DNA of 64,000 nt from Parcubacteria group bacterium M10-OD1-1 (GCA_003056145.1 LSNL01000002.1:36369-100368), one strand, 5' to 3'; counted from the first letter of the stretch, positions 23,144 through 57,929 are shown. Notes: a model not told the origin generated them from the sequence alone. Made by a program: numbers and translations.

Positions 23144-23173
23144 TGATTTAAATTTTTCAAGAGTTAGAAGATT

Positions 23174-23779: not shown

Positions 23780-23804
23780 AATAATTTTTAGCGATATTAA
23801 AGAT

Positions 23805-25090: not shown

Positions 25091-25097
25091 AAAAAGC

Positions 25098-39684: not shown

Positions 39685-40792
39685 AATTAGCAAAATAAGA
39701 CAGTCAATAGATACTAAATTATTTTTTACTGTTTTTGGTTTGCTGATTTTTGGTTTAATTATGATTGCTTCAGCTGGAATTTCTTATTCTCGGGTTCACT
39801 TCGGTGATCCGTATTATTTTTTTAAACATCAACTTTTTTATGGTGTAATTCCTGGCTTTATTATGCTTTATATTGCCCAAAGAGTTAATTATAATTTTTG
39901 GAAAAGAATATCCTTTCCTTTTTTTCTTTTGAGTATAATATTTTTAGTTTTAGTTTTTGTGCCGGGTTTTGGTTCTAGAATTTATGGAGCTAGTCGCTGG
40001 ATCAAATTAGGTCCTTTCTCTTTTCAACCAGCGGAAATGTTAAAGCTTTCTATGGTTATTTATTTAGCTGCTTGGCTAGAGGGTAAAATAAATAAAGTGA
40101 AGGATTTTTATGAAGGCTTAGTTCCTTTTTTAGTAATTTTAGGTATTGTAAGTTTTCTTTTAATTAAGCAACCAGATATGGGAACTTTAGGAGTAATAAT
40201 TTTAATTGCTATTTCTATTTTTTTTATTTCTGGAGCTAAAGTTTCTCATATTCTAATGATGGGAAGTATCGGATTTTTAGGATTGTATATTTTAATAAAA
40301 ATAAAACCGTATAGAATGAATCGGTTTTTAGTTTTTTTGCATCCCGAGCTTGATCCACAAGGAATTGGTTATCAAATCAATCAGGCTCTTTTAGCTATTG
40401 GGTCAGGTGGAATTTTTGGAGTTGGCTTGGGACATAGTTTGCAGAAAATGAATTATTTACCTGAGCCAGTAGGTGATTCTATTTTTGCAATTATTGGCGA
40501 AGAGTTAGGTTTGATTGGAGCAGTTGCTTTAATTGCTCTTTTTGTTTATTTTGCAATACGAGGATTGAGAATTGCCAAAAATGCTCCTGACCGTTTTTCT
40601 CAATTAATAGCTGTTGGGATAGTGTCTTGGATTGCTTTTCAGGCTTTCATTAATATAGCTGCTATCTCTGGACTAATTCCTTTAACTGGAATTCCACTTC
40701 CATTTATCAGTTATGGAGGAACTTCAATTATTTTTCTGATGGTTGCCGTTGGCATATTGCTTAACATTTCAAAATATTCAAAATCTAGCTAA
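39674..40792 (+). CDS. ftsW: SEDS-family peptidoglycan glycosyltransferase FtsW/RodA
   Basis: 10 TM helices and SEDS motifs. Start set at the ATG at 39674 (preceded by a GAGGAAAG RBS), which overlaps the trmD end by 11 nt. The track ORF starts upstream at 39623. Confidence 0.85.
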
Positions 40793-40819: not shown

Positions 40820-41923
40820 ATGAAAATTGTCTTAACTGGAGGTGGAACAGGAGGGCATTTAGTTCCCCTTGTCGTCATAGCTAAAAAAATAAAGGAAAAA
40901 AATCCAGAAGCTCAATTTTTATTTATCGGTCCAGCTGGAGCAATGGAGAAAAAAATAATTGGCGGAGCAGGGATTCCGATGAAAAAAATTGCGACTGGAA
41001 AAATGAGGAGGTATTTTTCTTTTCAAAATTTAGTAGATTTTTTTAAGGTACCTTTCGGAATCTTGCAAGTGCTATGTTTACTTTTATGGAATATGCCAGA
41101 TGCCATTTTTTCTAAAGGCGGTTATGCTTCAGTCCCAGTTGTTTTAGTTGGTTGGCTTTATAGAATTCCAATTTTAATTCATGAATCTGATGCTAATCCT
41201 GGAGTTTCCAATAGTATTTTAGCTAAATTTGCTAACCGAGTAGCAGTAGCTTATTCGCAAGCTGAAATATATTTTCCAGCAGAACAAGTAGTTTTGACTG
41301 GCAATCCATTACGAGAAGATATTGTTCAAGGAGAAGCTCAAAAAGCAAGAGAACTTTTTTCTTTAATTGAATCTAAAAAAGTTATTTTTGTTTGGGGCGG
41401 TTCGCAAGGTTCAAAAATTATTAACGATAACATTTTAGAGGTCTTACCAGAGCTGCTAAGAGAGTATCAGGTTATTCATCAGACTGGAGAAAATAATTTG
41501 AAAGAAGTGAAAAAGAAAGCAGGAGAATTAGGGATTAAGGCTGGGAGAGAAGGTTATTTTCCTTTAGCTTTTATTGAAGAAGAATTAAAAGATATTTTAG
41601 CTGTTTCTGATTTAGTTATTTCTCGAGCGGGAAGTAGCTCAATTTCTGAAATAGCTGCTAACAGAATACCATCAATCTTAATTCCTTTAGAAAACGCAGC
41701 CAATAATCATCAAAGAATGAATGCCTATGCGATTGCTAAAATCGGAGGAACAGTAGTTTTAGAAGAAGCTAATTTAAGGGGGCATATTTTATTAGGAAAA
41801 ATTAAAGAAATTTTAACCAATGATGAATTCAGGGAAAAGTTAAGGAATAATGTAGGAAAATTTTATCACGCTGACGCAACGGAAAAAATAGCGGAAGGAT
41901 TACTAGGAATGATTAGAGACTAA
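40820..41923 (+). CDS. murG: Undecaprenyldiphospho-muramoylpentapeptide beta-N-acetylglucosaminyltransferase
   Basis: MKIVLTGGGTGGHLVPLVVIA start, and a GGSQGSK region. Confidence 0.9.
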   Translation: MKIVLTGGGTGGHLVPLVVIAKKIKEKNPEAQFLFIGPAGAMEKKIIGGAGIPMKKIATGKMRRYFSFQNLVDFFKVPFGILQVLCLLLWNMPDAIFSKGGYASVPVVLVGWLYRIPILIHESDANPGVSNSILAKFANRVAVAYSQAEIYFPAEQVVLTGNPLREDIVQGEAQKARELFSLIESKKVIFVWGGSQGSKIINDNILEVLPELLREYQVIHQTGENNLKEVKKKAGELGIKAGREGYFPLAFIEEELKDILAVSDLVISRAGSSSISEIAANRIPSILIPLENAANNHQRMNAYAIAKIGGTVVLEEANLRGHILLGKIKEILTNDEFREKLRNNVGKFYHADATEKIAEGLLGMIRD

Positions 41924-41933: not shown

Positions 41934-43337
41934 ATGAAACTAGATTTAACAAAAATAAAAAAAGTTTATGTAATCGGGATTAAAGGTTCAGGAATTATTG
42001 CGATTGTGCAAATGCTACATTCTCAAGGAATAGAAATTTTAGGATCAGATACGACCGAAAAATTTTTTACTGATGCAATTTTACAAAAGATGAAAATAAA
42101 ATATTTTGAGGGGTTTAATCCTGAAAATATTCCTTTAGATGTTGATTTAGTAATTTATTCTACTTCTTATAATGAAAATAATAATGCAGAATTGGTAGAA
42201 GCTAAAAAAAGAAATTTAAAAATTATCAGTTATCCAGAAATTCTAGCTTCTTTCTTTAACCAAAAATTCGGTATTGCTGTTGCAGGAACTCATGGAAAAA
42301 CTACTACCTCCGCTATGTTAGCGCAGGTGATGTTAGAGGCTGGTGCCGATCCAAGCGCCGTTGTGGGTAGTCAAATTAAAAGTTGGGAAGGCAATGCTTT
42401 AGTTGGTCGGGGAGAATATTTTATTGCAGAAGCAGATGAATTTCAAAATAAACTTCAATTCTATTTTCCTAAAATGGTAATTTTAACCAGTGTAGATTGG
42501 GATCATCCAGATTTTTTTGAAAAATTTTCTGATTATAAAAAAGTTTTCCAAGACTTCGTTAAAAAAATTCCACGAACAGGATTATTAGTAGTTTGGGGAG
42601 AAAGTGTAGATACCTTGGAAGTAGCTAAGGAAGCTACTTGTCAAATAATTAGATATGGTTTTGCAGAAGATAATGAGGTGAGAATTATCAACTATCAATT
42701 ACAAATTCCTGAACAATCTTCAATTTCTAATTGGCAAGAATTTGAAATTTCAATCAAGGGAAAGTCTTTAGGTAAATTTAAAACTCGGCTAGTTGGTCAA
42801 CATAATGTTTTGAATGTAGCTAGTGTAATTGTTATTTGCTATAAGTTAAATTTAAATATGGAAAAAGTCAAAAAAGCTCTTTGGGATTTTCAAGGAACAG
42901 CTAGAAGATTTGAATATATTGGAACCAGAAATGGAGCTATTTTAATTGATGATTACGGGCATCATCCAGAGGAAATAAAAGCTACTCTAAAAAGTGCTAG
43001 GGAAATTTATCCTCAAAAAAATATTTTGGCAATTTTTCAGCCACATACTTTCACTAGAACAAAAATGTTTCTTGACGAATTTGCTCAAAGTTTTAGTGCA
43101 GTTGATAAAGTGATTGTTTTGGATATTTATGGCAGTGCTAGAGAAAATCAAGGAGGAGTTAGCTCTCAGGATTTAGTAACTTTAATTAATAAATTTGATT
43201 ATCAAAAAGCTCAAAACATTGCAACGGCAGAAAAAGCAGTGGAATATTTAAAAGATAAGCTAGATCAGAATGATGTAGTTATTACTATTGGCGCTGGTAA
43301 TGGTTGGAAAATTGTAGAACAATTAAAAAAAGATTAG
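41934..43337 (+). CDS. murC: UDP-N-acetylmuramate--L-alanine ligase
   Basis: VYVIGIKGSGIIAIVQMLHSQGIEILGSD, and GIAVAGTHGKTTTSAML P-loop. Confidence 0.9.
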   Translation: MKLDLTKIKKVYVIGIKGSGIIAIVQMLHSQGIEILGSDTTEKFFTDAILQKMKIKYFEGFNPENIPLDVDLVIYSTSYNENNNAELVEAKKRNLKIISYPEILASFFNQKFGIAVAGTHGKTTTSAMLAQVMLEAGADPSAVVGSQIKSWEGNALVGRGEYFIAEADEFQNKLQFYFPKMVILTSVDWDHPDFFEKFSDYKKVFQDFVKKIPRTGLLVVWGESVDTLEVAKEATCQIIRYGFAEDNEVRIINYQLQIPEQSSISNWQEFEISIKGKSLGKFKTRLVGQHNVLNVASVIVICYKLNLNMEKVKKALWDFQGTARRFEYIGTRNGAILIDDYGHHPEEIKATLKSAREIYPQKNILAIFQPHTFTRTKMFLDEFAQSFSAVDKVIVLDIYGSARENQGGVSSQDLVTLINKFDYQKAQNIATAEKAVEYLKDKLDQNDVVITIGAGNGWKIVEQLKKD

Positions 43338-43381
43338 GAATAAAATAATAAGGGTAGGTAAGTTAAAAAATATAAAAAAAT

Positions 43382-46300
43382 ATGGATAAACAAAAAAACA
43401 AATTACAAAATTTTACTAATCTCTATGAGCTATCAAAAACTTTGAGGTTTGAGTTGAAACCGGTTGGGGAAACACTTGCAAAAATAAAAGAACACTTTCA
43501 GTATGATAAAGATTTGCAAACTTTTTTGAAGGATCAAAAGATTGAAGATGCTTATCAATTATTAAAACCAAAAATAGATACCATTCATGAATTTTTTATT
43601 GATACTAGTTTAGAGTCGGCAAAAGCAAAGCAAATAGATTTTAGTGAATATCTTGAAAAATATAAAAAGAAAGATGCTTTACTAGACACAGAAAAGAAGT
43701 TAAGAAATGCTATTGGAAAAACTTATCTTGAAGGAGGGAAAAAACTAAAATATGAATATCTAGATTTAAAATGGAAAAAAGGAAGTAGTGAAACAAGGGG
43801 AGTGAATATGCTTTTTTCTATTGATATTTTAGAAGCAGTAAGACAAGATTTTTCTGATGATGAAGATGTAGAAAATGCTTTGGAGGAATTTAAAAGTTTT
43901 TTCACTTATCTTTCCGGTTTTAATCAAAACAGAGCTAATTATTATACAACAGATGGAAAAGTTACTGCAATAGCAACTCGTATTGTTGATGAAAATTTAC
44001 CAAAATTTTGTGCCAATACTTTGCAGTTTAACGGATACACGAAAAAAAATAAAAAAGGAAAAGAGATAAAATTTGATAGAAAAAATGAATATCTTGAAAT
44101 ATACACATATCTCAAAGCTCAAAACAAAACAACTCAAATCAAAGATGCTGATACAGACACAATGATAGAGGCAACTCCTATTACTGAAGAAATATTTCAG
44201 ATAGCTTATTTTGTAAATTGTTTTTCACAAAAAGAGATTGAAGAATATAATAAAAAAATAGGACATTGCAATCAACTTATCAATCTTTATAATCAAGCGA
44301 AAAACAAAGAAGAAAATTTCAAAAAACTTCCGTTGTTTAATACACTTTACAAGCAAATTGGATGCGGTAAAAGAGAGCCATTATTTTTTAGCATTACTCA
44401 TGACACAAAAAAGCAATCTAAAGAAAACAAAGAAAAATTCTCAAAACCATATTCGGTAGAAGAAATTTTGGAAGATGCCAAAGATGGTGGAGAAAAGTTT
44501 TTTAAAGAACCAAGTAATAACGAGGATATGACAGTTTATACTTTGACTAAATGGCTTAGAAACAATAAAGATTGGGAAGGTGTATATTGGTCAAAACCTG
44601 CTATAAATACAATTTCTAACAAATATTTTGCTAATTGGCATGAAATAAAAGATAAATTAAAAAAAGATAAAACCGTTGCTAGTTTTAACAAAAAAAGAGA
44701 GGAACAAATAAAGATTAATGATGCTGTTGAATTAGCGGGACTTTTTGAAGTGTTGGATGATTTTGGAGATGAAGGAATGCAACCAGGGCGGAGTGAGAAG
44801 TTTTTTAAACCATCAATTATTCAAGATAGAAAAGATGAAATAGATGAATCTAAAACGCTAAGCCAAAATCTTCTCAGTATGCTTTGTAATGATATAGAAA
44901 ATAATGCAAAAGATTTTACAGATACAGAAAAACAAGCAAAAATCTTTTCAATCTCAGATTACAAAGAAGATAAAAATAAAAAATTTATCAAAGAATGGAT
45001 GGATGGTGCTTTGGCTGTAAACAAAATGATAAAGTATTTTAGAGTAAAGGCAAACAAGATAAAAGGATCAGAAATAAACACAGAACTTAACAATATTTTA
45101 GATATTCTTTTGGATAAAGAAAAAGCAGATTGGTTTAAGTGTTATGATTCTTTGAGAAACTATCTTACAAAAAAACCGCAAGATGATGTAAAAGAAAATA
45201 AATTGAAGTTGAATTTTGAAAAAGGAAATTTGTTAAATGGTTTTGTTGATTCGCATTCTGCATCTGATAATGCTACGCAATACGGAGGGTATTTATTTAG
45301 AAAATATATTGGAAATGATGAGTTAGAATATAAAAAATATTATTATTATTTAGGAATTAGTAAAGATCCAAAATTATTTCGTTGTCATTTGCAGAATGAA
45401 ATCCGAGAAAATGATAAGAATGAATTGCAAAGATTGGAATATTATCAACCTAAATCTACTACTTTTTTTAGTGATAAGTATTCAGAAAATAAGAAAAAAA
45501 TTGTAGAGTATCTTTCTGCAGAATTAAATGTGCAAATTGAAAAAGAAAAGGAGCTTTTAGATATAGAAAATGATAATAAAAAAATAGGTGAGCTAGATAG
45601 ACTAAAAACGAAATTATTAAAAGGAGATACTCCTACAAAATTATTTGATAATATACAAAAAAATAAAAAGTATATATATATTTTAGAAGATAAAAAACTA
45701 AATGAACTAGTTGATGAAACTATTAAAGAGATGAAAATTTTTATTAAAAATTATGAAGAAAGAACCTCAAAATTAAAAGAGATTCAAGAAAGAAAATATA
45801 TTGGCTGGAAAGATTTAAAGTGTATAATTGATGATTTACAAGAAATAGCTAAAAAACAAAAAGTATATAATTTTTTTGCTATTAGTAATTCTGAATTTCA
45901 GGAAGTAAAAAATAGAAAAGACAAGCCATTGTTTTTATTTCAAATAGTAAATAAAGATTTACAAAGGCCATTAATACTAAAAGACAAAAAAACAGGAAGG
46001 TCTGTTATAAACAATCTTCACACCATCTATTTTGAGACACTACTTTCTGGAAATCAAGACGCTATTGACATAGGAGCTGGAGCTATTTTTTACAGGCAAT
46101 ATGCTATTGATAAAAAGGTGTTAAAAGATGGATATGAAAAAAAGCCATGGATTATAAAAAATAAAAGATTTACAAAAAATGAATCATTGACTGAAGATAA
46201 AAAAATGTTATCACAAGATGGAAAATCTTTTTTTCTACATTTATCAATCAGTTTAAATTTTTCATCAGATCCTAGTACTATAAGGGGTAAAAGAAATAAA

Positions 46301-47710
46301 AAAGTAGTTGCAACTCTTAACACACTTACTCAAACGGAATTTATCAAGCAAGAAAATATTTACTTCCTTGGTCTTGATCGAGGAGAAAAACACCTTGTAT
46401 ATTATTGTTTAATTGACCAAAAAGGAAAAATTATAAAACAAGGAGATTTAGACATGCCATTTCTAGATGCAAATAAAAATCCTAGAAGTGTTTTGAGGAA
46501 AAAATATTTTTATGATAAAAAGACAAAAGAATGGGAGGAGAAGGAAGTAGATTGTTGGAATTATAATGATTTACTGGATGCTGTTTCCTCAAATCGTGAT
46601 ATGGCTCGTAAAAATTGGCAAACTATTGGGAATATAAAGAATCTCAAAGCGGGATATATTTCACAAATTGTTTATGAGATTGTAAAAGAAGTAACGAATA
46701 AACCAACTTATATCGTTTTGGAAGATTTAAATACGGGATTCAAAAGAGGAAGACAAAAAATAGAAAAACAAATTTATCAAAAATTTGAAGTGGCACTTGC
46801 TAAAAAACTTAACTTCATTGTAGATAAAACAGCTCAAGATGGAGAGCTTGCATCGGTTACAAAAGCATTGCAACTTACTCCACCTGTAGAAAATTATCAA
46901 GATATTGAGAAGAAAAAACAAGTGGGAGTTATGCTTTATACAAGAGCTAATTATACTTCTGTTACTGATCCAAAAACGGGATGGAGAAAAACAGTTTACT
47001 TGAAAAAAGGATCGGAAGAATCAATTAAAGAACAAATTTTAGAAAAATTTACTGATATTGGATTTGATGGAAAAGATTATTTTTTTGAGTATGAAGATGA
47101 TTTCACAGGAAAAAAATGGAGGATTTGGTCAGGAAAAGATGGGAAAGCACTGTTGCGCTATAGAGGAAAGAGAGGAAAAGATAAATATGAATGGATTATT
47201 GAAGAGCAAGATATTGTTGAAATTTTAGATGGTGTATTTCAGAAATTTGATAAAAATCGCTCGTTATATGGTCAAATTAAAGAAGGTATAAAGCTTATAA
47301 AATATAATGAACATACCGCTTGGGAATCTTTGCGTTTTGCTATTGATCTTATCCAACAAATTAGAAACTCAGGAGATGTTGAAAAAAAAGAAGATGACAA
47401 TTTCTTGCTTTCGCCGGTAAAAGATGAAAATGGAAAGCATTTTGATTCTCGTGAATATGAAAACCAAGAAAATGCTGATATGCCAAGAGATGCTGATGCA
47501 AATGGGGCATTCAATATCGCTAGAAAAGGTTTGATAATGCATGAGCATATTAAGCAATGGAAAAAAGATGGCGCAAGAAATAAAGACTTAAATTTATTTA
47601 TTTCAGATAGAGAGTGGGATTTGTGGCTATTAAATAGAGAAGAATGGAGAAATAAGTTATCAACTTTTGCATCACAGAAGTTATGGGATGATTTTGCAAC
47701 TAAAAAATAA
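43382..47710 (+). CDS. cas12a: Cas12a (Cpf1) type V-A CRISPR effector nuclease
   Basis: N-terminus FTNLYELSKTLRFELKPVGETL is the Cas12a WED signature. RuvC-I is LGLDRGEKHLVYY (D around aa 999). RuvC-II is YIVLEDLNTGFKRGRQKIEKQIYQKFE. RuvC-III is DADANGAFNIARKGL. A Nuc-like segment lies between RuvC-II and RuvC-III. Adjacent to a CRISPR array with Cas12a-type repeats. Confidence 0.92.
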   Translation: MDKQKNKLQNFTNLYELSKTLRFELKPVGETLAKIKEHFQYDKDLQTFLKDQKIEDAYQLLKPKIDTIHEFFIDTSLESAKAKQIDFSEYLEKYKKKDALLDTEKKLRNAIGKTYLEGGKKLKYEYLDLKWKKGSSETRGVNMLFSIDILEAVRQDFSDDEDVENALEEFKSFFTYLSGFNQNRANYYTTDGKVTAIATRIVDENLPKFCANTLQFNGYTKKNKKGKEIKFDRKNEYLEIYTYLKAQNKTTQIKDADTDTMIEATPITEEIFQIAYFVNCFSQKEIEEYNKKIGHCNQLINLYNQAKNKEENFKKLPLFNTLYKQIGCGKREPLFFSITHDTKKQSKENKEKFSKPYSVEEILEDAKDGGEKFFKEPSNNEDMTVYTLTKWLRNNKDWEGVYWSKPAINTISNKYFANWHEIKDKLKKDKTVASFNKKREEQIKINDAVELAGLFEVLDDFGDEGMQPGRSEKFFKPSIIQDRKDEIDESKTLSQNLLSMLCNDIENNAKDFTDTEKQAKIFSISDYKEDKNKKFIKEWMDGALAVNKMIKYFRVKANKIKGSEINTELNNILDILLDKEKADWFKCYDSLRNYLTKKPQDDVKENKLKLNFEKGNLLNGFVDSHSASDNATQYGGYLFRKYIGNDELEYKKYYYYLGISKDPKLFRCHLQNEIRENDKNELQRLEYYQPKSTTFFSDKYSENKKKIVEYLSAELNVQIEKEKELLDIENDNKKIGELDRLKTKLLKGDTPTKLFDNIQKNKKYIYILEDKKLNELVDETIKEMKIFIKNYEERTSKLKEIQERKYIGWKDLKCIIDDLQEIAKKQKVYNFFAISNSEFQEVKNRKDKPLFLFQIVNKDLQRPLILKDKKTGRSVINNLHTIYFETLLSGNQDAIDIGAGAIFYRQYAIDKKVLKDGYEKKPWIIKNKRFTKNESLTEDKKMLSQDGKSFFLHLSISLNFSSDPSTIRGKRNKKVVATLNTLTQTEFIKQENIYFLGLDRGEKHLVYYCLIDQKGKIIKQGDLDMPFLDANKNPRSVLRKKYFYDKKTKEWEEKEVDCWNYNDLLDAVSSNRDMARKNWQTIGNIKNLKAGYISQIVYEIVKEVTNKPTYIVLEDLNTGFKRGRQKIEKQIYQKFEVALAKKLNFIVDKTAQDGELASVTKALQLTPPVENYQDIEKKKQVGVMLYTRANYTSVTDPKTGWRKTVYLKKGSEESIKEQILEKFTDIGFDGKDYFFEYEDDFTGKKWRIWSGKDGKALLRYRGKRGKDKYEWIIEEQDIVEILDGVFQKFDKNRSLYGQIKEGIKLIKYNEHTAWESLRFAIDLIQQIRNSGDVEKKEDDNFLLSPVKDENGKHFDSREYENQENADMPRDADANGAFNIARKGLIMHEHIKQWKKDGARNKDLNLFISDREWDLWLLNREEWRNKLSTFASQKLWDDFATKK

Positions 47711-47740
47711 ATTAAAAAGTTATGTCTAAAAATAAAAAAT

Positions 47741-50700
47741 ATGAATAATTTCAAAAATTTGTATGAAATAACGAAGACGGTGCGGTTTCAAGCGATTCCT
47801 CAAAATGATAATGCAAAAAATAAAGAATTTATTGATAAAACAAAGCCAGATATTTTTAAATTTACAAAACAATGTCAAAAAATTCAGGAAAATTTTTTAG
47901 ATATTTTTTGTTATAAAGACGCTTTTGAAGAAGAGAATAAAATAGAATTTAAGAAAAAGCGAAAAATAAGGTATGGTTGGTTAAGAAATTACATAAAAAT
48001 TGATTTTTATGATTGGAAAAAAGAAAATAATCGAAATGATAAAGAATATTTTTTAACAGAAGTTGACTATTTACCGAAAGAATTTTTAAGGTGGATAAAT
48101 GAGTGGCAAGAACTTACAAATAAGTTAGATGAGTTTGTTGATAAAAATGAAGAGGAACAGGAACGAAAAAGTGAGATTGCTTTTGTCTTGCGTGGGTTTT
48201 TAAAACGGCAAAATTTTGAATTTATTCAAGAATTTGTAAAAGCGGTAATGGATTTGCAAAATGAAAGTGGAATAGAGTTAGATAAAAAAATAAAAGAGTT
48301 AAGAGAATTAATTTCAGAAACTTATAGAAATTTAAAAGCCTGTGAAAGAAAGTATTTACCCGCTCAAAGCACCGGAGTCTGTTTATATAAAGCAAGTTTG
48401 AATTACTATACAATAAACAAGACACCAAAATATTACACAAAAGAAAAAGAAAAAAAAGAAAAAGAGTTAGAAATGGAAATTATTGATTGTAAAGATAAAT
48501 TTGGAAAACCAGAGTTTTGGTTTGATAAAAAGTTTAATTTTAGAGAAAATCCACTTTATTGGACTCTTGAAGATGCCTATCAAAAAATGAAAATTTGGAA
48601 AGCAGATCAAAAATCAAAATTTAATGAAAAAATTGGGAATTTTATTTCCGATTATTTAAAAAAAGAATTTAAGGAGGATGAAATAAATCAATCACGGTTA
48701 GAAATTGCAAAAAATATTTTAAAAAAATATCCGTTATTTTCACCTATCAAAGAAGACTTTTTTATATCTTTTTTAGAACAGACAAAGGAAATAAAAATAA
48801 AATCTAAACAAAAAAATGATATTCTGCAAAAAAATGGAGATATAAAATCAAAAGAATTTGAAAAAATAATTTCTCAAAAATTACAAAATAGAAAGGTTCT
48901 CACAGAAGATGAGAACAATTTTGAGCAACTTTCAAAAGAAATAGCTAATATTGCCAAAGAGAGAGGAAAATTTTTTAATGCTCCAAATCAAACTATTCAA
49001 ACAAAAAATTATTATGAATTGTGTGAATTGTACAAACAAATTGCGATGAAGCGTGGGAAGATTATCGCAGAAATAAAAGGGTTGGAAAATGAAGAAGTGC
49101 AATCCCAAATGCTTTCTCATTGGGCCTTGGTGGTGCAAAAAAGGGAAAAAAGGTATGTTGTTTTTATTTCTCGTGGAGAAAATGAAAATCATAAGAAGGC
49201 TCATGATTGGCTAGAAAGAAACAAAGAGAATTTACAAAAAAAATCAGATGATTCTGTTATTTTGTATCATTTTAAATCTCTCACTTTACGAGCATTAGAG
49301 AAACTTTGTTTTAAAGAAGTTGAAAATACTTTTGCTCCAAAATTGAAACAAGGGGGAGTTAAGGTTAATTTTACGAGAATTAAAAAAGAATCCGGAAAAG
49401 AAAAAATAATTGATGTTTATGAGTTTCCAAGGTGTAAGCAAGAATTAAAAACAGATAACGAAAAAATAAATTTTTATTTAGAAGTTTTAAGATTTGAAGC
49501 AAGTAGACAAGATTATGAACTTAAACAATTAGATTTAGTTGATTTCGGAGGTTTGAAAGAATTTTTAGAAAAATCATCTGGTGATTTTGATAATCTGCAA
49601 GAATTTGAATCAGAGCTTGAAAAGGTGTGTTATGTTAAAGTACTTCTTTATTTTTTGGAAGATCAGTATGATAAATTTTTAGACATACTAAATGCAAAAG
49701 AGTTTGAAATAACAACTCGAAGTATCTCAAAAGAGAGTAAGAGAAAAGAAAATGCACATGCAGAAATTTGGAAAAATTTTTGGAATGATGAAAATGAAAA
49801 AAGTAATTATATTACCCGATTAAATCCAGAGATGAGTGTTTTTTATAGAGACACTCTTGATACACATGAAGGGAACAGAAACAGGTTTTCAGAACCTCGT
49901 TTTACACTTGCAACAACTATTACACTCAACGCAACGGCTAAAAAATCAAATTTATCATTTAAGACAATAGATGATATTAAAAAGAGTATTGATAAATTTA
50001 ATAAAGGGTTCAATAAGAATTTTAGAGGAGAATGGAGTTTTGGAATTGATAGAGGATTAAAAGAATTAGCGACTTTAAATATTGTAAAATTTGCAAAAGA
50101 TAAAAATGAATTTGGTGTTTCAAAACCAGAAAATTTTGCAGAGATAACAGTTTATAAATTAAAAGATGGGGATACATTTTTGACCGATAGTAGTGGTAAT
50201 GATTTGATAAATGCAAAAGGAGAAAAAAGAAAAATTATTGATAATATTTCGGAGGTTTTGCAAGAAAATGTGGAACCTGACTCAGAACTATTTGAGAAAC
50301 AAATTATTTCCAGTATTGATTTAACTCAAGCAAAACTTATCAAAGGGCATATTATTCTGAATGGAGATCAAAAAACTTATTTAAAACTTAAAGAATTATC
50401 AGCAAAAAGAAGAATTTTTGAGCTTTTTTCTACAAGAAAAATTGATAAGAGTTCAGAGATTACAGGAAAAAATAATTTTATAATTGGTGGTGAGAAAATC
50501 TATTTTGCAACAGAATGGCAAAAAGAAAATAAACATTGGAGAACAAATAGAGAAATAATAAAAGCTGATTTAAAAGATTATTTATTGAAATTAGATAAAA
50601 AAAATAAATTTGAAGATATTGAGCAAATAGAAAAAATAAATCATTTACGAGATGCAATAACGGCAAATATGGTTGGAATTATTTTTCACCTGCAAAATGT

Positions 50701-51226
50701 ACTAGGGATGAATGGTTTTATTGGATTGGAAAATCTTGATGTAATACGAAAAGAACTTTTAGAAAATGAAAAACAAGAAGACAAAAAAATGATTGAAGAG
50801 CATTTTGATCAGAGTAATGAAGATATTTCTCGTCGTTTGGAGTGGGCATTGTATAGAAAATTTGCAAATGTTGGGGATGTTCCACCACAAATAAAAGAAT
50901 CAATATTACTGAGAGATGATTTTTTGACCTATCAAATTGGAATTTTGAAATTTGTAAAAGTTGGCGGAACAAGTCGAGGTTGTCCAAACTGTAAAATATT
51001 TTGGGACAATGGGTGTGGTAGTAAATGTAATCCAAAGTGTAGTAGGTGTTTGGAAAATGAAGAATATAAGAAAAGTAAGAATAAAAATATTTATATTTGC
51101 AAAGACGTAAAAAAATGTAAATTTTCAACAGAAGAAAATCGAAATTTATTAGAAGAAAATCTTAATAATTCAGATGAGGTTGCAGCATATAATGTAGCAA
51201 AAAATGCTTTTGAGGAAACATATTAA
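47741..51226 (+). CDS. cas12a2: Second, divergent Cas12a-like effector with zinc-ribbon in place of Nuc domain (Cas12a2-like)
   Basis: N-terminus MNNFKNLYEITKTVRFQAIPQNDNA is Cas12a-WED-like. RuvC-I is WSFGIDRGLKELATL (around aa 770). RuvC-II is NGFIGLENLDV (around aa 997). RuvC-III is NSDEVAAYNVAKNAF (around aa 1145). Between RuvC-II and RuvC-III lies a Cys-rich segment: GCPNCKIFWDNGCGSKCNPKCSRCL...ICKDVKKCKF. The protein is 1161 aa, against 1442 aa for the adjacent Cas12a. It starts 31 nt after the cas12a stop and shares the downstream array. Confidence 0.65.
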   Translation: MNNFKNLYEITKTVRFQAIPQNDNAKNKEFIDKTKPDIFKFTKQCQKIQENFLDIFCYKDAFEEENKIEFKKKRKIRYGWLRNYIKIDFYDWKKENNRNDKEYFLTEVDYLPKEFLRWINEWQELTNKLDEFVDKNEEEQERKSEIAFVLRGFLKRQNFEFIQEFVKAVMDLQNESGIELDKKIKELRELISETYRNLKACERKYLPAQSTGVCLYKASLNYYTINKTPKYYTKEKEKKEKELEMEIIDCKDKFGKPEFWFDKKFNFRENPLYWTLEDAYQKMKIWKADQKSKFNEKIGNFISDYLKKEFKEDEINQSRLEIAKNILKKYPLFSPIKEDFFISFLEQTKEIKIKSKQKNDILQKNGDIKSKEFEKIISQKLQNRKVLTEDENNFEQLSKEIANIAKERGKFFNAPNQTIQTKNYYELCELYKQIAMKRGKIIAEIKGLENEEVQSQMLSHWALVVQKREKRYVVFISRGENENHKKAHDWLERNKENLQKKSDDSVILYHFKSLTLRALEKLCFKEVENTFAPKLKQGGVKVNFTRIKKESGKEKIIDVYEFPRCKQELKTDNEKINFYLEVLRFEASRQDYELKQLDLVDFGGLKEFLEKSSGDFDNLQEFESELEKVCYVKVLLYFLEDQYDKFLDILNAKEFEITTRSISKESKRKENAHAEIWKNFWNDENEKSNYITRLNPEMSVFYRDTLDTHEGNRNRFSEPRFTLATTITLNATAKKSNLSFKTIDDIKKSIDKFNKGFNKNFRGEWSFGIDRGLKELATLNIVKFAKDKNEFGVSKPENFAEITVYKLKDGDTFLTDSSGNDLINAKGEKRKIIDNISEVLQENVEPDSELFEKQIISSIDLTQAKLIKGHIILNGDQKTYLKLKELSAKRRIFELFSTRKIDKSSEITGKNNFIIGGEKIYFATEWQKENKHWRTNREIIKADLKDYLLKLDKKNKFEDIEQIEKINHLRDAITANMVGIIFHLQNVLGMNGFIGLENLDVIRKELLENEKQEDKKMIEEHFDQSNEDISRRLEWALYRKFANVGDVPPQIKESILLRDDFLTYQIGILKFVKVGGTSRGCPNCKIFWDNGCGSKCNPKCSRCLENEEYKKSKNKNIYICKDVKKCKFSTEENRNLLEENLNNSDEVAAYNVAKNAFEETY

Positions 51227-51240
51227 ATAATTTCTTAGAA

Positions 51241-51309
51241 ATTAAAAATGGCGATGATTTAGCTTCTTATAACATCGCAAAGCGAGGATTAAAAATTTGC
51301 AAAATATTA
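51241..51309 (+). pseudogene. Orphan fragment encoding a Cas12 RuvC-III/C-terminal-like peptide (IKNGDDLASYNIAKRGLKICKIL)
   Basis: Translation of 51241-51309 gives NGDDLASYNIAKRGL, matching the Cas12a DADANGAYNIARKGL motif. No start codon. Lies 15 nt after the stop of the second effector. Confidence 0.35.
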
Positions 51310-51618
51310 TAACAAGAGTAGAATTAGAGTATAAAAAGGATTTTACTGGAGGAGATAGTATTTATATATTTCAAGTATGCGAAGGATGTAAAAAAAAGAT
51401 TAAACGATATGGTTATGCTAAACATGAAGAATCAGATTTTATTTGCGTTTCATAAGGCTCTTTTACAATTAGCTAAAAGTATAAATTTCAGTCAGCCTAT
51501 TTCAAAAAATACAAAACCTCAGTTTCAATATCGTGGTTTTGCTTTATTTAAGTCAAAAAGTCGTTTTAACCTTAGTTTAAAATTTGCATCTTTTTGGCTT
51601 AAATATGCTATTTCTGGG

Positions 51619-53366
51619 CTCAAATAGACTTATCAAATTTCTACTTTTGTAGATTACATCTCCTATTACAATTATATCGTTCTCAAATAGACTTATCAAA
51701 TTTCTACTTTTGTAGATATGCGTTTTTTAAGATTTTTAATAATTGCTCAAATAGACTTATCAAATTTCTACTTTTGTAGATATTTTTGCTCCTCTACCAT
51801 TTTTCCTCTCAAATAGACTTATCAAATTTCTACTTTTGTAGATCTAATTTACCACCTTGTTGGGTTTCAACTCAAATAGACTTATCAAATTTCTACTTTT
51901 GTAGATTCTTTATCGCCAATTCTATGCGGCTTCTCAAATAGACTTATCAAATTTCTACTTTTGTAGATCAATAACTAAATAAAAGTTTTTGGGTGAACTC
52001 AAATAGACTTATCAAATTTCTACTTTTGTAGATTTCTAACATAAAATATGACTGTAAATCTCTCAAATAGACTTATCAAATTTCTACTTTTGTAGATTGA
52101 AGACTTGGAGTAAATCTAAAATAGACTCAAATAGACTTATCAAATTTCTACTTTTGTAGATCTAGATACTTGTTTGGCTAATGTAGCTCCTACACTCAAA
52201 TAGACTTATCAAATTTCTACTTTTGTAGATGAGTTGCTCAAAAGTATATTTTAGAGATAGATCTCAAATAGACTTATCAAATTTCTACTTTTGTAGATGT
52301 TATAGCGTTCATTTTACCAGCAAAGCTCAAATAGACTTATCAAATTTCTACTTTTGTAGATTTTGCTTAATCCCAACCCAGATGCCCCTCAAATAGACTT
52401 ATCAAATTTCTACTTTTGTAGATAGGGGTGTAGGCTTTCCTCCTGGCTTGGACCTCAAATAGACTTATCAAATTTCTACTTTTGTAGATCCTCGTGCACA
52501 TCTTTGCGTACTACTACCTCAAATAGACTTATCAAATTTCTACTTTTGTAGATTTCTATCGTGCAGGAGTTAAAAGTATTGCTCAAATAGACTTATCAAA
52601 TTTCTACTTTTGTAGATGATGATTTAAGAAATAATAATAAATACTCAAATAGACTTATCAAATTTCTACTTTTGTAGATATTGTTCCCGTGATTACATCC
52701 ACTGATGGCTCAAATAGACTTATCAAATTTCTACTTTTGTAGATTCTACCCTTGGCTATATCAACCATTCTCAAATAGACTTATCAAATTTCTACTTTTG
52801 TAGATCTCGCCTAGCCAGCGAATAGCTAATACTCAAATAGACTTATCAAATTTCTACTTTTGTAGATGTAGTGAAGAAAATAACTTAATTTTAGACTCAA
52901 ATAGACTTATCAAATTTCTACTTTTGTAGATAAGGACCCATTAGGCAAACGGTAAGCGTCCTCAAATAGACTTATCAAATTTCTACTTTTGTAGATGGCG
53001 TGACAGACAATGCAACATCCATACTCAAATAGACTTATCAAATTTCTACTTTTGTAGATGTAGAATTGTCTGTATTAAATAACCTAGAACTCAAATAGAC
53101 TTATCAAATTTCTACTTTTGTAGATAGTCCAGAGGTCTTCAGTGTCTACATACTCAAATAGACTTATCAAATTTCTACTTTTGTAGATTCATTGCCACTC
53201 TTATCCGGTGATCACTCAAATAGACTTATCAAATTTCTACTTTTGTAGATACCGCCTATCAGCGATATTACTCTCCTCAAATAGACTTATCAAATTTCTA
53301 CTTTTGTAGATAAGTGGAAATTAAAAACCCAATTAAAGCTCAAATAGACTTATCAAATTTCTACTT
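51619..53366 (+). CRISPR. CRISPR array: 28 repeats (27 full plus 1 degenerate terminal) of 36 nt, CTCAAATAGACTTATCAAATTTCTACTTTTGTAGAT, and 27 spacers of 25-33 nt
   Basis: Repeats start at 51619, 51682, 51746, 51808, 51871 and so on, through 53276. The last repeat (53339-53366) diverges after CTACTT. The repeat 3' half AATTTCTACTTTTGTAGAT is the Cas12a crRNA 5'-handle, with stem TCTAC/GTAGA and loop TTTT. The array is oriented on the + strand: leader on the cas-proximal side, degenerate repeat distal. Confidence 0.97.
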
Positions 53367-53610
53367 GGGAGCATTTTTTTCATTTGCGTTGTTCTTCTGC
53401 AGCTGAACCATCAATGCGAGAAGTAACAATTCCCCTTAGTGAGGAATTTTGTAAAAAATTTCCTCAACATTCATTTAATAGGCGGATGCCAGAGGGTTGG
53501 ATTTTAGAAAAATAGAAAAAATTTAGATTTGAGAATAGTAATAAAGCTATTGTTTGTAACCAAACAATAGCTTTTAAAATTGGTATAAGTGTGATAAAAT
53601 TTAATTAGTA

Positions 53611-54591
53611 ATGAAAGTAAAAATAGAGAGAAAAAATAAAGAATTAGTAGGAAATAAAAACTTTATGATAAATATTCAAGAAAATATTTCTTTGGTTCCG
53701 TATACTACCTTTAGAATTGGCGGATTAGCGAAATTTTTTTGTGAAGTTAAAAATCAAGAAGAACTTAAAGAGGCACTTGATTTCGCTGAAAAAAACAAGG
53801 TTGTAGTTTTTCTATTGGGTAAGGGCAGTAATATATTATTTAGTGATGATGGTTTTGCTGGTTTGGTAATTAAGCTTATTAAGGGAGCTTGCCAAATATC
53901 AGGAACAAATATGAAATGTGGAGCTGGAATGTCGTTAGCAAAAGTGGTGATTTTAGCAATGAAAACTTCTTTAACTGGTTTAGAATGGGCGGCTGGAATT
54001 CCAGGTACAATCGGTGGAGCAGTGAGAGGAAATGCTGGCGCATATGGTTCGGAAATGAAAAATATCGTGCAAGCAGTCAAGGTCTTTGATATTAAAGAAA
54101 AGCAAGTAAGAATCTATAATTCAGTCGAATGCGAATTTGAATATCGTTGTAGTCTTTTTAAAAAAAATAAAAATCTAATTATTCTATCGGTTACTTTGGA
54201 ATTACAAAAAGGAGAAACTGAGCAAATTAGCCAAAAAATACAAACTATAGTTAAAAAAAGAAAAGATACTTTACCAAAAGAAAGAAGTGCGGGTAGTTTT
54301 TTTAAAAATCCAATAACTAATAATAAAAAATTAATCAAACAATTTGAAGAAGAAAAAAAAGTGAAAATACGAGATGATAAAATTCCTGCTGCTTGGTTAA
54401 TTGAAGAGGCTGGACTGAGAGGAAAAAAAATTGGTGGAGCACAGGTTGATAAAAAGCATAGTAATTTTATTGTTAATACAGGACAAGCAACTGCTCAGGA
54501 TGTTATTATTCTAGCTAGTGTAATTAAACAAAAAGTAAGAGAAAAATTGAGCATTCAGTTGCGAGAAGAGATTCAATATGTAGGATTTTAA
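53611..54591 (+). CDS. murB: UDP-N-acetylenolpyruvoylglucosamine reductase
   Basis: LVPYTTFRIGGLAKFF, GKGSNILFSD, and GAGMSLAKVV FAD-binding motifs. An alternative start at 53662 (MINIQ) is possible. Confidence 0.85.
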   Translation: MKVKIERKNKELVGNKNFMINIQENISLVPYTTFRIGGLAKFFCEVKNQEELKEALDFAEKNKVVVFLLGKGSNILFSDDGFAGLVIKLIKGACQISGTNMKCGAGMSLAKVVILAMKTSLTGLEWAAGIPGTIGGAVRGNAGAYGSEMKNIVQAVKVFDIKEKQVRIYNSVECEFEYRCSLFKKNKNLIILSVTLELQKGETEQISQKIQTIVKKRKDTLPKERSAGSFFKNPITNNKKLIKQFEEEKKVKIRDDKIPAAWLIEEAGLRGKKIGGAQVDKKHSNFIVNTGQATAQDVIILASVIKQKVREKLSIQLREEIQYVGF

Positions 54592-57880: not shown

Positions 57881-57929
57881 GGTTTGTATTTTTCAAAAAT
57901 AATAAAAAATCATTTAAATATAAAAAATT

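What the first reader, a model, noticed from the sequence alone, without database searches (positions are those of the whole stretch)
41934..54591. CRISPR-Cas locus inserted between murC and murB inside the cell-wall synthesis gene cluster
ftsW, murG and murC run contiguously up to 43337, and murB resumes at 53611. The 10 kb in between is entirely cas12a, the cas12a2-like gene, and the array. In most bacteria murG-murC-murB are adjacent in the dcw cluster. The defense locus therefore looks like an insertion into a highly conserved syntenic block. This is useful for comparing with related genomes to date the acquisition.
Basis: inference. Interest (0 to 1): 0.5.

Follow-up and report, generated by a model that had tools for sequence, protein, structure and literature searches.

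The report
Dual-nuclease CRISPR locus splitting murC–murB
A 10-kb CRISPR defence locus with two different RNA-guided nucleases (Cas12a and a Cas12a3-type enzyme) sharing one spacer array has been inserted between two cell-wall genes that are normally fused into one operon in this bacterium's relatives; the parts are of known kinds, but co-existing strains differ in which Cas12a gene they carry and in whether they keep the spacer-acquisition genes.

Summary
On the + strand the order is ftsW, murG, murC (to 43337), cas12a (43382-47710), a second 1161-aa effector (47741-51226), a 28-repeat/27-spacer array (51619-53374), then murB (53611). The genome is a Candidatus Moranbacteria (CPR). Of 112 informative related loci, 58 have murC and murB less than 250 nt apart. 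That includes the two nearest relatives (8-nt overlap, 10-nt gap; clade bootstrap 97/100). None of 131 related loci has a cas gene nearby, so the locus is a lineage-specific insertion.

Three corrections apply.
- The junction is not inviolate. About a third of relatives carry other genes there, mainly a P-type ATPase or a PMT_2 glycosyltransferase.
- There is no GC or codon-usage shift, transposase, integrase or target-site duplication.
- The second effector is a Cas12a3-clade protein, not Cas12a2-like. It is 52% identical to Rb2Cas12a3 and its fold is closest to Cas12a3 structures. It belongs to the Roizmanbacteria type, in which the tRNA-loading domain region is largely deleted.

A same-species contig has a cas12a only about 30-33% identical between near-identical flanks, and it keeps cas4-cas1-cas2. 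The window has lost these genes, leaving a cas2 tail. Verdict: a new member of a known kind, of moderate interest.

The parts
39623..40792 (+). ftsW (SEDS lipid II polymerase/flippase family). This is the ORF as listed; gene callers start it about 50 nt later.
   Evidence: Pfam FTSW_RODA_SPOVE E 9e-109. Gene calls on identical contigs.
40820..41923 (+). murG
   Evidence: Pfam Glyco_transf_28 plus Glyco_tran_28_C.
41934..43337 (+). murC, the upstream flank of the insertion.
   Evidence: Pfam Mur ligase N/M/C domains. NCBIfam TIGR01082 equivalog, 459 bits against a cut-off of 335.
43338..43381 (+). 44-nt murC-cas12a spacer. No promoter-like or terminator-like site was detected, so read-through from the dcw operon is inferred.
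43382..47710 (+). cas12a, the 1442-aa 'long' allele, with RuvC D-E-D motifs present. The stretch from about 43476 to 47682 is replaced by a gene about 30-33% identical (1313 aa) in same-species contig L001.
   Evidence: NCBIfam TIGR04330 492 against 300, PADLOC Cas12a, PDB Cas12a hits. Allele comparison.
47741..51226 (+). cas12a3-type effector of the Roizmanbacteria type, with the tRNA-loading domain region largely deleted. Catalytic D770/E997/D1145 and a Cys-rich zinc ribbon are present.
   Evidence: PDB Cas12a3 hits at E 3e-61. 52% identity over 100% coverage to Rb2Cas12a3. Foldseek TM 0.65 to 21we/9hlx, against 0.45 for Cas12a2 and 0.3 for Cas12a. Alignments A2 and A3.
51247..51312 (+). Out-of-frame relic of a Cas12a3-type C-terminus (NGDDLASYNIAKRGL...), also present in L001.
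   Evidence: Sequence reading and alignment with L001. Compare the Rb2Cas12a3 C-terminus.
51297..51455 (+). cas2 3' remnant, equal to codons 42-93 of L001 Cas2 plus the stop. It marks a 1.8-kb deletion of cas4-cas1 and the 5' part of cas2.
   Evidence: tblastn 100% over 52 aa. blastn and alignment with L001.
51456..51618 (+). CRISPR leader, matching the L001 leader in every position but the last.
51619..53374 (+). CRISPR array. It has 27 perfect 36-nt repeats (CTCAAATAGACTTATCAAATTTCTACTTTTGTAGAT) plus a degenerate terminal repeat at 53339-53374, and 27 spacers of 25-33 nt. It is transcribed in the same direction as the cas genes.
   Evidence: The repeat 3' hairpin UCUAC-UUUU-GUAGA is shown.
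53543..53574 (+). Perfect 14-bp hairpin 37 nt upstream of murB. It may terminate the array transcript; a promoter-like site lies at 53573-53600.
   Evidence: Fold z-score -3.6, with 0 of 200 shuffles as stable. Consensus scan; the promoter count is not above chance.
53611..54591 (+). murB, the downstream flank of the insertion, followed by hpf, a response regulator and recJ.
   Evidence: Pfam FAD_binding_4 plus MurB_C. NCBIfam PRK13905 296 against 259.

Best explanation
A complete type V cassette (cas12a - cas12a3 - cas4 - cas1 - cas2 - array) was acquired horizontally by the ancestor of this Candidatus Moranbacteria species. It landed in the short or overlapping junction between murC and murB, co-directional with the ftsW-murG-murC-murB operon.

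The locus most likely works as follows.
- It is probably transcribed at least partly by read-through from murC (inferred).
- Both nucleases process the same pre-crRNA through the canonical Cas12a 5' handle carried by every repeat.
- Cas12a cuts PAM-flanked invader DNA.
- The Cas12a3-type enzyme is triggered by complementary invader RNA. Because it is the Roizmanbacteria type with a largely deleted tRNA-loading domain, it most likely cleaves target and bystander RNA. The result would be growth arrest as a back-up when DNA targeting fails.

The locus has since been remodelled within the species.
- The cas12a gene was exchanged for a distant allele by recombination. One breakpoint lies in its conserved first 93 nt and the other at the cas12a3 border.
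- In the strain of this window, a 1.8-kb deletion removed cas4, cas1 and most of cas2. The array can therefore no longer be extended in cis.
For: Shown:
- Gene identities.
- murC-murB adjacency in 58 of 112 relatives, and tight coupling in the two nearest, L049 and L034, which form a clade with the window at 97/100.
- No cas genes at this site in any of 131 related loci.
- The same cassette, with the same 19-nt repeat core (crRNA handle), lies at unrelated chromosomal sites in other genomes (L169/L170 and L172).
- Same-species contig L001 has cas4-cas1-cas2 exactly where the window keeps only codons 42-93 of cas2 at 100% identity.
- The flanks are 98.7-99.8% identical while the cas12a alleles are 30-33% identical, with the first 31 aa identical.
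- Four independent assemblies break exactly at that divergence point.
- The catalytic D-E-D triad is conserved in both effectors.
- The repeat folds into the Cas12a handle hairpin.
- The second effector is 52% identical to Rb2Cas12a3. Its fold is closest to Cas12a3 (TM 0.65). About 85 residues of the tRLD region are missing.

From the literature:
- The tRLD-less RoiCas12a3 cleaves target ssRNA and shows strong collateral RNase activity (PMC13594972).
- Cas12a3 loci are often associated with Cas12a.
- Tandem Cas12a/Cas12a2 loci share an array and were proposed as a back-up pair (PMC9811890).
Against: - No compositional or codon-usage signature of foreign origin.
- No transposase, integrase or target-site duplication at the borders. 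The insertion mechanism is therefore unknown.
- The nearest non-conspecific genomes are only 64-66% identical in MurC. No close 'empty site' was found and the acquisition cannot be dated.
- The next-closest relatives carry a P-type ATPase at this junction. The pre-insertion state could have been murC-ATPase-murB rather than direct adjacency.
- No protospacers were found, so PAM, PFS and activity are untested.
- Read-through transcription and the RNA-cleavage mode are inferences.
- Promoter-like hits are not above chance in this AT-rich DNA.
Confidence: 0.7

Rival explanations
1. Replacement rather than simple insertion. The ancestor had murC - P-type ATPase (with or without a PMT_2 glycosyltransferase) - murB, as in the next-closest relatives. 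The CRISPR cassette displaced that gene or genes.
For: Four lineages (L007, L008, L089, L096) join the window trio in a clade at 94/100, and all have a roughly 910-aa P-type ATPase between murC and murB. They did not form a separate monophyletic group in any bootstrap replicate, so the window trio may be nested among them. The window encodes no homologue of that ATPase.
Against: The window's two closest relatives have murC and murB overlapping or 10 nt apart. One loss of the ATPase in the trio's ancestor followed by insertion is therefore more parsimonious than displacement plus two independent clean losses. No ATPase remnant is seen in 43338-43381 or 53375-53610.
Confidence: 0.2
2. Ancestral residence. 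The CRISPR locus was already at this site in the common ancestor of the clade and was lost precisely from the relatives.
For: cas gene composition is indistinguishable from the host genes, which is compatible with long residence.
Against: None of 131 related loci carries cas genes near murC. Repeated scar-free excision restoring an 8-nt gene overlap or a 10-nt gap is improbable. Homologous cassettes sit at different sites in other genomes.
Confidence: 0.05
3. Assembly artefact. The cas locus and the dcw genes were joined wrongly at repeats or at strain-variable sequence.
For: Short-read contigs break at the array and at the cas12a divergence point. One contig (L087) shows spacer 11 directly before the terminal repeat. 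This may be a repeat-induced misjoin or a real contraction.
Against: The murC->cas12a junction (44 nt, unique sequence) is present in at least seven contigs from different samples. The terminal repeat->murB junction is present in at least two. cas12a->cas12a3 is contiguous in L001 and L002, and cas12a3->cas2->leader->array is contiguous in L001. Only the interior order of the spacers is unverified.
Confidence: 0.03
4. Functional coupling. The position inside the cell-wall operon is selected. It might tie cas expression to growth or division, or make loss of the locus costly because deletions would hit essential neighbours.
For: The locus is co-directional, with a 44-nt gap and no terminator after murC. 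The insert is present in every contig recovered for this species. Another genome (L171) has a solitary cas12a3 plus mini-array directly after ftsA-ftsZ.
Against: Two of the five cas12a3 gene contexts examined lie next to cell-wall/division genes, which is anecdotal. Homologous cassettes sit next to unrelated genes. The junction also accepts unrelated cargo in relatives, which fits a permissive site rather than a selected one.
Confidence: 0.12

Closest known systems
Roizmanbacteria 'Cas12a + Cas12a'' loci (Chen et al. 2019, PMC6509639) and Rb2Cas12a3/RoiCas12a3 (PMC12851939, PMC13594972)
   Same: - CPR host.
- A canonical cas12a is followed by a divergent second type V effector next to the adaptation genes and one array.
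- The window's second effector is 52% identical over its full length to Rb2Cas12a3.
- It shares the Rb2Cas12a3 deletions in the tRLD region and its extended Cys-rich zinc ribbon.
   Different: - The host is a different phylum-level lineage (Moranbacteria).
- The locus lies between murC and murB.
- The adaptation genes are deleted in this strain.
- The partner cas12a is a different, long (1442-aa) lineage.
- It could not be confirmed that RoiCas12a3 is the same protein as Rb2Cas12a3.
Ba1Cas12a3 / BaCas12a3 (PDB 9hlx, 21we): RNA-triggered tRNA CCA-tail nucleases
   Same: - Best sequence and fold matches among solved structures (E 3e-61; TM 0.65).
- Conserved RuvC D-E-D triad (Ba1 D712/E1032/D1137 correspond to D770/E997/D1145).
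- Zinc ribbon.
- Cas12a-type crRNA handle.
   Different: - About 22% identity in the structural alignment.
- About 85 residues are missing in three gaps within the tRNA-loading domain region, including the segment that holds Y922 and N924. R902 is not conserved in the alignment.
- Specific tRNA-tail cleavage is therefore not expected by homology.
Tandem Cas12a + Cas12a2 systems (Dmytrenko et al. 2023, PMC9811890)
   Same: Two type V nucleases in tandem beside a single shared array with Cas12a-type repeats, one DNA-targeting and one RNA-triggered. They were proposed as a back-up against escape mutants and anti-CRISPRs.
   Different: The second nuclease here is not Cas12a2. There is no PDB Cas12a2 hit at E <= 0.01 by sequence, and fold TM is 0.45 against 0.65 for Cas12a3. 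Published Cas12a3 proteins lack the Cas12a2 aromatic clamp and cause no DNA damage.
Homologous cassettes at other chromosomal sites (L172, GCA_054008515.1; L169/L170, JGI Ga0209467)
   Same: - Same gene order: cas12a-cas12a3-(cas4-cas1-cas2)-array.
- Same 19-nt repeat core AATTTCTACTTTTGTAGAT.
- The Cas12a3 proteins are 53-56% identical.
- L172 Cas12a/Cas4/Cas1/Cas2 are 66/73/73/68% identical to those of the sister strain L001.
   Different: They lie next to an aminoacyl-tRNA synthetase gene or radical-SAM/RiPP-like genes, not in the dcw cluster. L172 has an extra pentapeptide-repeat gene. The partner Cas12a proteins fall into three lineages about 33% identical to each other.
Canonical dcw (division and cell wall) cluster
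   Same: ftsW-murG-murC-murB order on one strand. murC and murB are translationally coupled in the nearest relatives.
   Different: Only a four-gene fragment is present here. It is preceded by trmD, not mraY/murD, and followed by hpf, not ddl/ftsQAZ. murJ lies 13 kb upstream.

Membership tests
Type V-A CRISPR-Cas (Cas12a) | Cas12a effector passing a curated family model | tested here: met
   TIGR04330 cas_Cpf1 equivalog, 491.6 bits against a cut-off of 300. PADLOC Cas12a models. PDB Cas12a hits down to E 5e-90.
Type V-A CRISPR-Cas (Cas12a) | Intact RuvC-I/II/III catalytic motifs | tested here: met
   LGLDRGEKHL, IVLEDLN and DADANGAFNIARKG align with the same motifs of the L001 Cas12a.
Type V-A CRISPR-Cas (Cas12a) | Repeat ending in the 5'-handle AAUUUCUACU-loop-GUAGAU, with the array co-oriented so that the repeat precedes the spacer | tested here: met
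   27 identical repeats end in AATTTCTACTTTTGTAGAT. The predicted hairpin is UCUAC/GUAGA. The degenerate repeat lies at the distal end.
Type V-A CRISPR-Cas (Cas12a) | Adaptation module cas4-cas1-cas2 | tested here: not met
   There is no cas1 or cas4 in the 64-kb window, only codons 42-93 of cas2. The module is present in same-species contig L001.
Type V-A CRISPR-Cas (Cas12a) | T-rich 5' PAM on protospacers | not testable with these tools
   No protospacers were found for 8 spacers against IMG/VR (exact prefix of 24-26 nt per spacer), for the whole array against INPHARED, or for any spacer against all fetched loci.
Cas12a3 clade (Dmytrenko et al. 2026; NAR 2026) | Sequence membership in the published clade | tested here: met
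   52% identity over 100% coverage to P0007. P0007 matches Rb2Cas12a3 of the paper's FASTA in both peptides searched and in length. The only PDB sequence hits are Cas12a3.
Cas12a3 clade (Dmytrenko et al. 2026; NAR 2026) | Fold closest to Cas12a3 structures | tested here: met
   AF2 model with pLDDT 79. Foldseek gives 21we_A and 9hlx_A at TM 0.65, Cas12a2 at 0.45 and Cas12a at about 0.3.
Cas12a3 clade (Dmytrenko et al. 2026; NAR 2026) | RuvC D-E-D triad and zinc ribbon | tested here: met
   D770 and E997 are invariant and D1145 is nearly invariant across 34 homologues. CPNC and further Cys columns are conserved.
Cas12a3 clade (Dmytrenko et al. 2026; NAR 2026) | tRNA-loading domain (Ba1 residues 855-960 with R902, Y922, N924) | tested here: not met
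   phmmer alignments skip Ba1 912-994. MAFFT shows three gaps totalling about 85 residues in this region, shared with Rb2Cas12a3. According to PMC13594972 only about 35% of Cas12a3 homologues have this domain. Its absence defines a sub-type rather than exclusion from the clade.
Cas12a3 clade (Dmytrenko et al. 2026; NAR 2026) | RNA-triggered cleavage of tRNA 3' tails / collateral RNA | not testable with these tools
   This needs biochemistry. The published tRLD-less RoiCas12a3 cleaves target and collateral RNA.
Cas12a2 | Sequence or fold closest to SuCas12a2; aromatic clamp for dsDNA collateral cleavage | tested here: not met
   No Cas12a2 chain at E <= 0.01. Foldseek TM 0.40-0.46 to 8d49/8d4a/8d4b, below Cas12a3. 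The aromatic clamp was not examined residue by residue.
Mobile element or integrase-borne defence island | Transposase or integrase, flanking direct or inverted repeats, compositional shift | tested here: not met
   No such genes lie between murC and murB. The longest flank repeat is 8-10 nt, within the shuffle expectation. GC3 and codon usage are within the host range.
dcw cluster synteny in Moranbacteria | murC immediately followed by murB | tested here: inconclusive
   This is true for 58 of 112 informative relatives and for both nearest relatives. However, 34 have 0.25-9.6 kb of other genes in between, and in 20 murB was not found within the 1.5-10 kb held downstream of murC.

The most novel reading that the evidence does not exclude
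The locus may be a natural 'plug-and-play' dual-effector system. On this reading the RNA-triggered Cas12a3 gene, the array and its handle are the stable core. The DNA-cutting cas12a is repeatedly exchanged by homologous recombination at its conserved first ~93 nt and at the cas12a3 border.

Three Cas12a lineages about 33% identical to each other partner one Cas12a3 lineage across genomes. Two of them appear to co-exist within this single species. The implied driver is diversifying selection, for example by anti-CRISPRs or PAM escape. Lodging the locus between translationally coupled essential genes would anchor it and supply constitutive read-through expression.
Probability: 0.25. Interest if true: 0.65.

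Novelty: new member of a known kind. Interest (0 to 1): 0.45.

Why it matters
CPR bacteria rarely carry CRISPR-Cas, and Cas12a3 nucleases were characterised only in 2026. Three aspects give this locus value.

- It adds a Moranbacteria example of the tandem Cas12a/Cas12a3 architecture and provides a new orthologue of the tRLD-less (Roizmanbacteria-type) subgroup.
- Comparison with a same-species contig shows how such loci evolve on short time scales: wholesale exchange of the DNA-targeting effector while the RNA-targeting effector and repeat are retained, loss of the adaptation module, and turnover of leader-proximal spacers.
- The two cas12a alleles must work with the same crRNA handle. They form a ready-made natural experiment on effector interchangeability, PAM compatibility and anti-CRISPR evasion.

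The position between normally coupled murC and murB shows that an essential operon can tolerate a 10-kb co-directional insert. Apart from that, the chromosomal location is of local rather than general significance.

Tried and rejected
1. GC, GC3, codon-usage and tetranucleotide tests for foreign origin gave no signal beyond what the repeats and two long Lys/Glu-rich genes produce.
2. A search for target-site duplications or inverted repeats at the insert borders found nothing above shuffle expectation.
3. Protospacer searches found no convincing hit. They covered all spacers against the window and 170+ fetched loci, 8 spacers against IMG/VR viral contigs (exact prefixes), and the whole array against 50,697 phage records. 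There was no self-targeting, so PAM and PFS could not be derived.
4. Looking for a close 'empty-site' relative failed. One scan each of genome contigs and metagenome contigs with MurC found nothing closer than 64-66% identity. Exact-protein look-ups found only contigs that already carry the insert.
5. The idea that the murC-murB junction is a defence hotspot was rejected. Cargo in relatives is a P-type ATPase, a PMT_2 glycosyltransferase, an IS200-like gene, a TrmB-like regulator, an Asn-synthase-like gene and unknowns, not recognisable defence systems.
6. Promoter and terminator consensus scans gave counts at chance level. Only the hairpin at 53543-53574 stands out.
7. Rfam and tRNA scans of the window found nothing.
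8. A literature look-up of the assembly and run accessions found no paper.
9. The exact identity of RoiCas12a3 with Rb2Cas12a3 could not be confirmed from the NAR text.
Full report
**1. What is there**

All genes from 19.3 kb to the end of the window are on the + strand.
- Pfam and NCBIfam identify FtsW (39623-40792), MurG (40820-41923), MurC (41934-43337; TIGR01082 459 bits against a cut-off of 335) and MurB (53611-54591; PRK13905 296 against 259).
- Downstream come hpf, a response regulator, recJ, an RNase H-like gene and a MacAB-type ABC system.
- Upstream lie trmD, a KH-domain gene, HtrA-like proteases, a SurA-like gene, DivIC, LepA, MurJ and a glycosyltransferase cluster.

Between murC and murB lie 10,273 nt.
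- cas12a (43382-47710, 1442 aa) scores 492 bits on TIGR04330 against a cut-off of 300, and has PDB Cas12a hits to E 5e-90.
- A second large gene (47741-51226, 1161 aa) has no Pfam or NCBIfam match.
- A 392-nt stretch follows (51227-51618).
- The CRISPR array has 27 perfect 36-nt repeats plus a degenerate terminal repeat (51619-53374), with 27 spacers of 25-33 nt.
- A 236-nt trailer precedes murB.

Every repeat ends in AATTTCTACTTTTGTAGAT. This folds into the canonical Cas12a 5'-handle hairpin.

**2. Is it an insertion?**

Record titles of 80 genome loci retrieved with MurC place the organism among Candidatus Moranbacteria/Moraniibacteriota, in the Parcubacteria group of the CPR. A further 80 metagenome loci were added. 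I mapped the window's proteins onto all loci.

After removing duplicates, 131 loci remain, of which 112 are informative.

| State of the murC-murB junction | Loci |
|---|---|
| murB starts less than 250 nt after murC | 58 |
| Gap of 250-1200 nt | 12 |
| Gap of more than 1.2 kb | 22 |
| murB not found within the 1.5-10 kb held downstream of murC | 20 |

None of the 131 has a cas12a or cas12a3 homologue.

A neighbour-joining tree of concatenated FtsW+MurG+MurC puts the window in a clade with L049 and L034 (97/100 bootstrap). In L049 murC and murB overlap by 8 nt, and in L034 they are 10 nt apart.

The next relatives (L007, L008, L089, L096) join this trio at 94/100. They carry a roughly 910-aa P-type cation ATPase at the junction. 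Other clades add a PMT_2 glycosyltransferase or assorted ORFs.

So the cas locus is a derived, lineage-specific acquisition at this junction. The junction is a recurrent site of gene gain and loss, not an inviolate one. A scenario in which the cassette displaced the ATPase cannot be excluded but is less parsimonious.

All contigs that encode the identical MurC run into cas12a. All contigs with the identical MurB start in the end of the array. The insert therefore appears fixed in the sampled populations, and the two junctions are independently confirmed.

**3. How did it get there?**

There is no transposase, integrase or flanking repeat. There is also no compositional signal:

| Measure | cas12a | cas12a3 | 44 other ORFs of the window (mean ± sd) |
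|---|---|---|---|
| GC | 0.281 | 0.271 | 0.313 ± 0.027 |
| GC3 | 0.185 | 0.177 | 0.219 ± 0.054 |
| Codon-usage distance | 0.060 | 0.070 | 0.085 ± 0.023 |

The same cassette order (cas12a, cas12a3, cas4, cas1, cas2, array, with the same 19-nt repeat core) occurs at unrelated sites in other genomes.
- L172 lies next to an aminoacyl-tRNA synthetase gene.
- L169/L170 lie next to radical-SAM/PqqD genes.

This supports movement of the cassette as a unit, from donors of unconfirmed lineage; a CPR donor with similarly low G+C would explain the missing compositional signal, but the composition of these contigs was not measured. The mechanism of integration remains unknown.

**4. The second effector**

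By sequence, its only solved relatives are Cas12a3 proteins: Ba1Cas12a3 9hlx at E 3e-61, and BaCas12a3 21we. Among 5.8 billion proteins it has only 36 homologues at E <= 1e-10.
- One of them, P0007, is 52% identical over full length.
- P0007 matches Rb2Cas12a3 of the Cas12a3 discovery paper in the two peptides searched and in length (PMC12851939).
- The window's own protein is not in that paper's list.

An AlphaFold2 model (pLDDT 79) matches Cas12a3 binary complexes best (TM 0.65). Cas12a2 follows at 0.45 and Cas12a at about 0.3.

The RuvC triad (D770, E997, D1145) and the zinc-ribbon cysteines are conserved.

About 85 residues are missing in three gaps inside the region that forms the tRNA-loading domain of Ba-type enzymes. 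The missing part includes the segment with Y922 and N924. The zinc ribbon is longer. Rb2Cas12a3 shares both features.

PMC13594972 reports that only about 35% of Cas12a3 homologues have this domain. It also reports that a Roizmanbacteria representative without it (RoiCas12a3) cleaves its RNA target, has strong collateral RNase activity, and degrades tRNA with a different pattern.

I therefore assign the gene to the Cas12a3 clade, tRLD-less subtype. I infer RNA-triggered target and collateral RNA cleavage rather than specific CCA-tail trimming. That function is inferred, not shown.

The 'cas12a2-like' label is close but not correct.

Tandem Cas12a plus a divergent second Cas12 was already noted in Roizmanbacteria in 2019 (PMC6509639). 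It was noted for Cas12a2 in 2023 (PMC9811890) and for Cas12a3 in 2026. The architecture is therefore known.

**5. Strain-level remodelling (not in the original finding)**

Contig L001 (GCA_003056095.1) has an identical MurC. It matches the window as follows:
- 99.8% identity over 11.5 kb, up to 93 nt into cas12a;
- 98.7% identity across cas12a3.

Between those points, its cas12a encodes a 1313-aa protein that shares only the first 31 residues and then 30-33% identity with the window's 1442-aa protein. Four contigs from other assemblies end exactly at that divergence point. A fifth ends about 78 nt after the end of cas12a, near where the two haplotypes re-converge. This is what an assembly graph does at a polymorphic bubble.

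Across genomes the pattern repeats.
- The Cas12a3 proteins of the window, L169 and L172 are 53-56% identical to one another.
- Their partner Cas12a proteins fall into three lineages about 33% identical to each other. L001 and L172 are 66% identical and belong to one lineage.
- cas12a is thus the exchangeable component of a conserved cas12a3-adaptation-array core.

L001 also retains cas4, cas1 and cas2. The window lacks 1.8 kb there. It keeps only the last 52 codons of cas2 (100% identical, 51297-51452) followed by a leader that matches L001's in every position but the last. This strain has therefore lost its adaptation module by deletion.

The four leader-proximal spacers visible in L001 are absent from the window's 27 spacers. 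The arrays therefore diverged after the strains split.

A short out-of-frame relic of a Cas12a3-type C-terminus (NGDDLASYNIAKRGL) sits just after the cas12a3 stop in both strains. This is a further trace of past recombination.

**6. Likely operation**

- cas12a starts 44 nt after murC, with no terminator-like or promoter-like site detected. Read-through from the cell-wall operon is plausible but inferred.
- Both nucleases would mature crRNAs from the shared array.
- Cas12a would cut PAM-flanked DNA.
- The Cas12a3-type enzyme would respond to invader transcripts and shut down the cell's RNA pool.
- A perfect 14-bp hairpin (53543-53574; z = -3.6) followed by a promoter-like site lies just upstream of murB. 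It may terminate the array transcript and re-initiate murB. The promoter evidence is weak in this AT-rich DNA.
- No protospacers or self-targets were found, so activity, PAM and PFS are untested.

**7. Verdict**

The components belong to known families, so this is a new member of a known kind. The chromosomal position is a curiosity of moderate interest. The added value lies in the within-species cas12a exchange and the adaptation-module loss, which are directly testable with the existing read sets.

Noticed in passing
window 43476-47682 vs L001 11543-15356: Two cas12a alleles (1442 aa and 1313 aa, about 30-33% identical after an identical 31-aa N-terminus) sit between flanks that are 98.7-99.8% identical in same-species contigs. 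Four other assemblies break exactly at the divergence point.
   Followed up: yes
window 51297-51455: A cas2 3' remnant (codons 42-93, 100% identical to L001 Cas2) marks a 1.8-kb deletion of cas4-cas1 and the 5' part of cas2. There is no cas1 or cas4 anywhere in the window.
   Followed up: yes
window 51247-51312 (also L001 about 18930-19020): An out-of-frame relic encoding NGDDLASYNIAKRGL..., a second copy of the RuvC-III/C-terminal motif of a Cas12a3-type gene, lies just after the cas12a3 stop codon.
   Followed up: partly
L087 1-330 (Logan SRR6439372 contig): In this contig spacer 11 of the window's array sits directly before the degenerate terminal repeat, upstream of murB. It is either a real array contraction (loss of spacers 12-27) in a subpopulation or a repeat-induced misjoin.
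   Followed up: partly
L171 10001-13480 (GCA_942490825.1): A solitary cas12a3-type gene (48% identical) with a four-repeat mini-array lies immediately after ftsA-ftsZ, with no cas12a or adaptation genes. This is a second case of this effector abutting division genes.
   Followed up: partly
L007, L008, L009, L012, L014, L019, L020, L026, L030, L038, L040, L047, L089, L096 (murC-murB gap): A roughly 910-aa P-type cation ATPase, often with a roughly 512-aa PMT_2 glycosyltransferase, occupies the murC-murB junction in several Moranbacteria clades. L007 also has an IS200-like Y1 transposase fragment there. The window encodes no homologue of the ATPase; no homologue of the relatives' PMT_2 protein was found by tblastn either, though two window ORFs (473-2065, 6688-8256) have weak sub-threshold PMT_2 Pfam hits.
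   Followed up: partly
L011, L017, L029, L031, L036, L044, L048 and duplicates: In one Moranbacteria clade murC is followed directly, or after a PMT_2 gene, by the RNase H-like and HlyD-like genes that lie at 57446-58928 in the window. murB-hpf-response regulator-recJ are not found within 10 kb.
   Followed up: no
L141 11390-21010: A 9.6-kb murC-murB gap is filled with many small ORFs (DUF3232, a TrmB-like regulator, an Asn-synthase-like gene and unknowns). It may be a mobile or phage-derived insert.
   Followed up: partly
many related loci (e.g. L013, L015, L021, L023, L033, L116): A gap of about 1.0-1.4 kb (up to 3.5 kb in L150) between murG and murC in a subclade suggests an extra gene at that junction too. 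The window has only 10 nt there.
   Followed up: no
window 53543-53574: A perfect 14-bp hairpin (AAAGCTATTGTTTG-TAAC-CAAACAATAGCTTT) lies 37 nt upstream of murB. It is much more stable than shuffles (z = -3.6).
   Followed up: partly
window 16053-19254 (- strand): Two adjacent minus-strand ORFs (446 and 619 aa), plus a 130-aa ORF at 15683-16075, form the only opposite-strand block in the window. The two large ORFs have no Pfam match.
   Followed up: no
window 19341-28723: A cluster of four GT4 glycosyltransferases is bracketed by two DUF4012 proteins (460 and 833 aa) and followed by MurJ. Two of the GT4 proteins also hit the 'GT4-conflict' Pfam family.
   Followed up: no
L172 13306-14313: A pentapeptide-repeat protein (335 aa) is inserted between cas12a3 and cas4 in the most similar complete cassette.
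   Followed up: no
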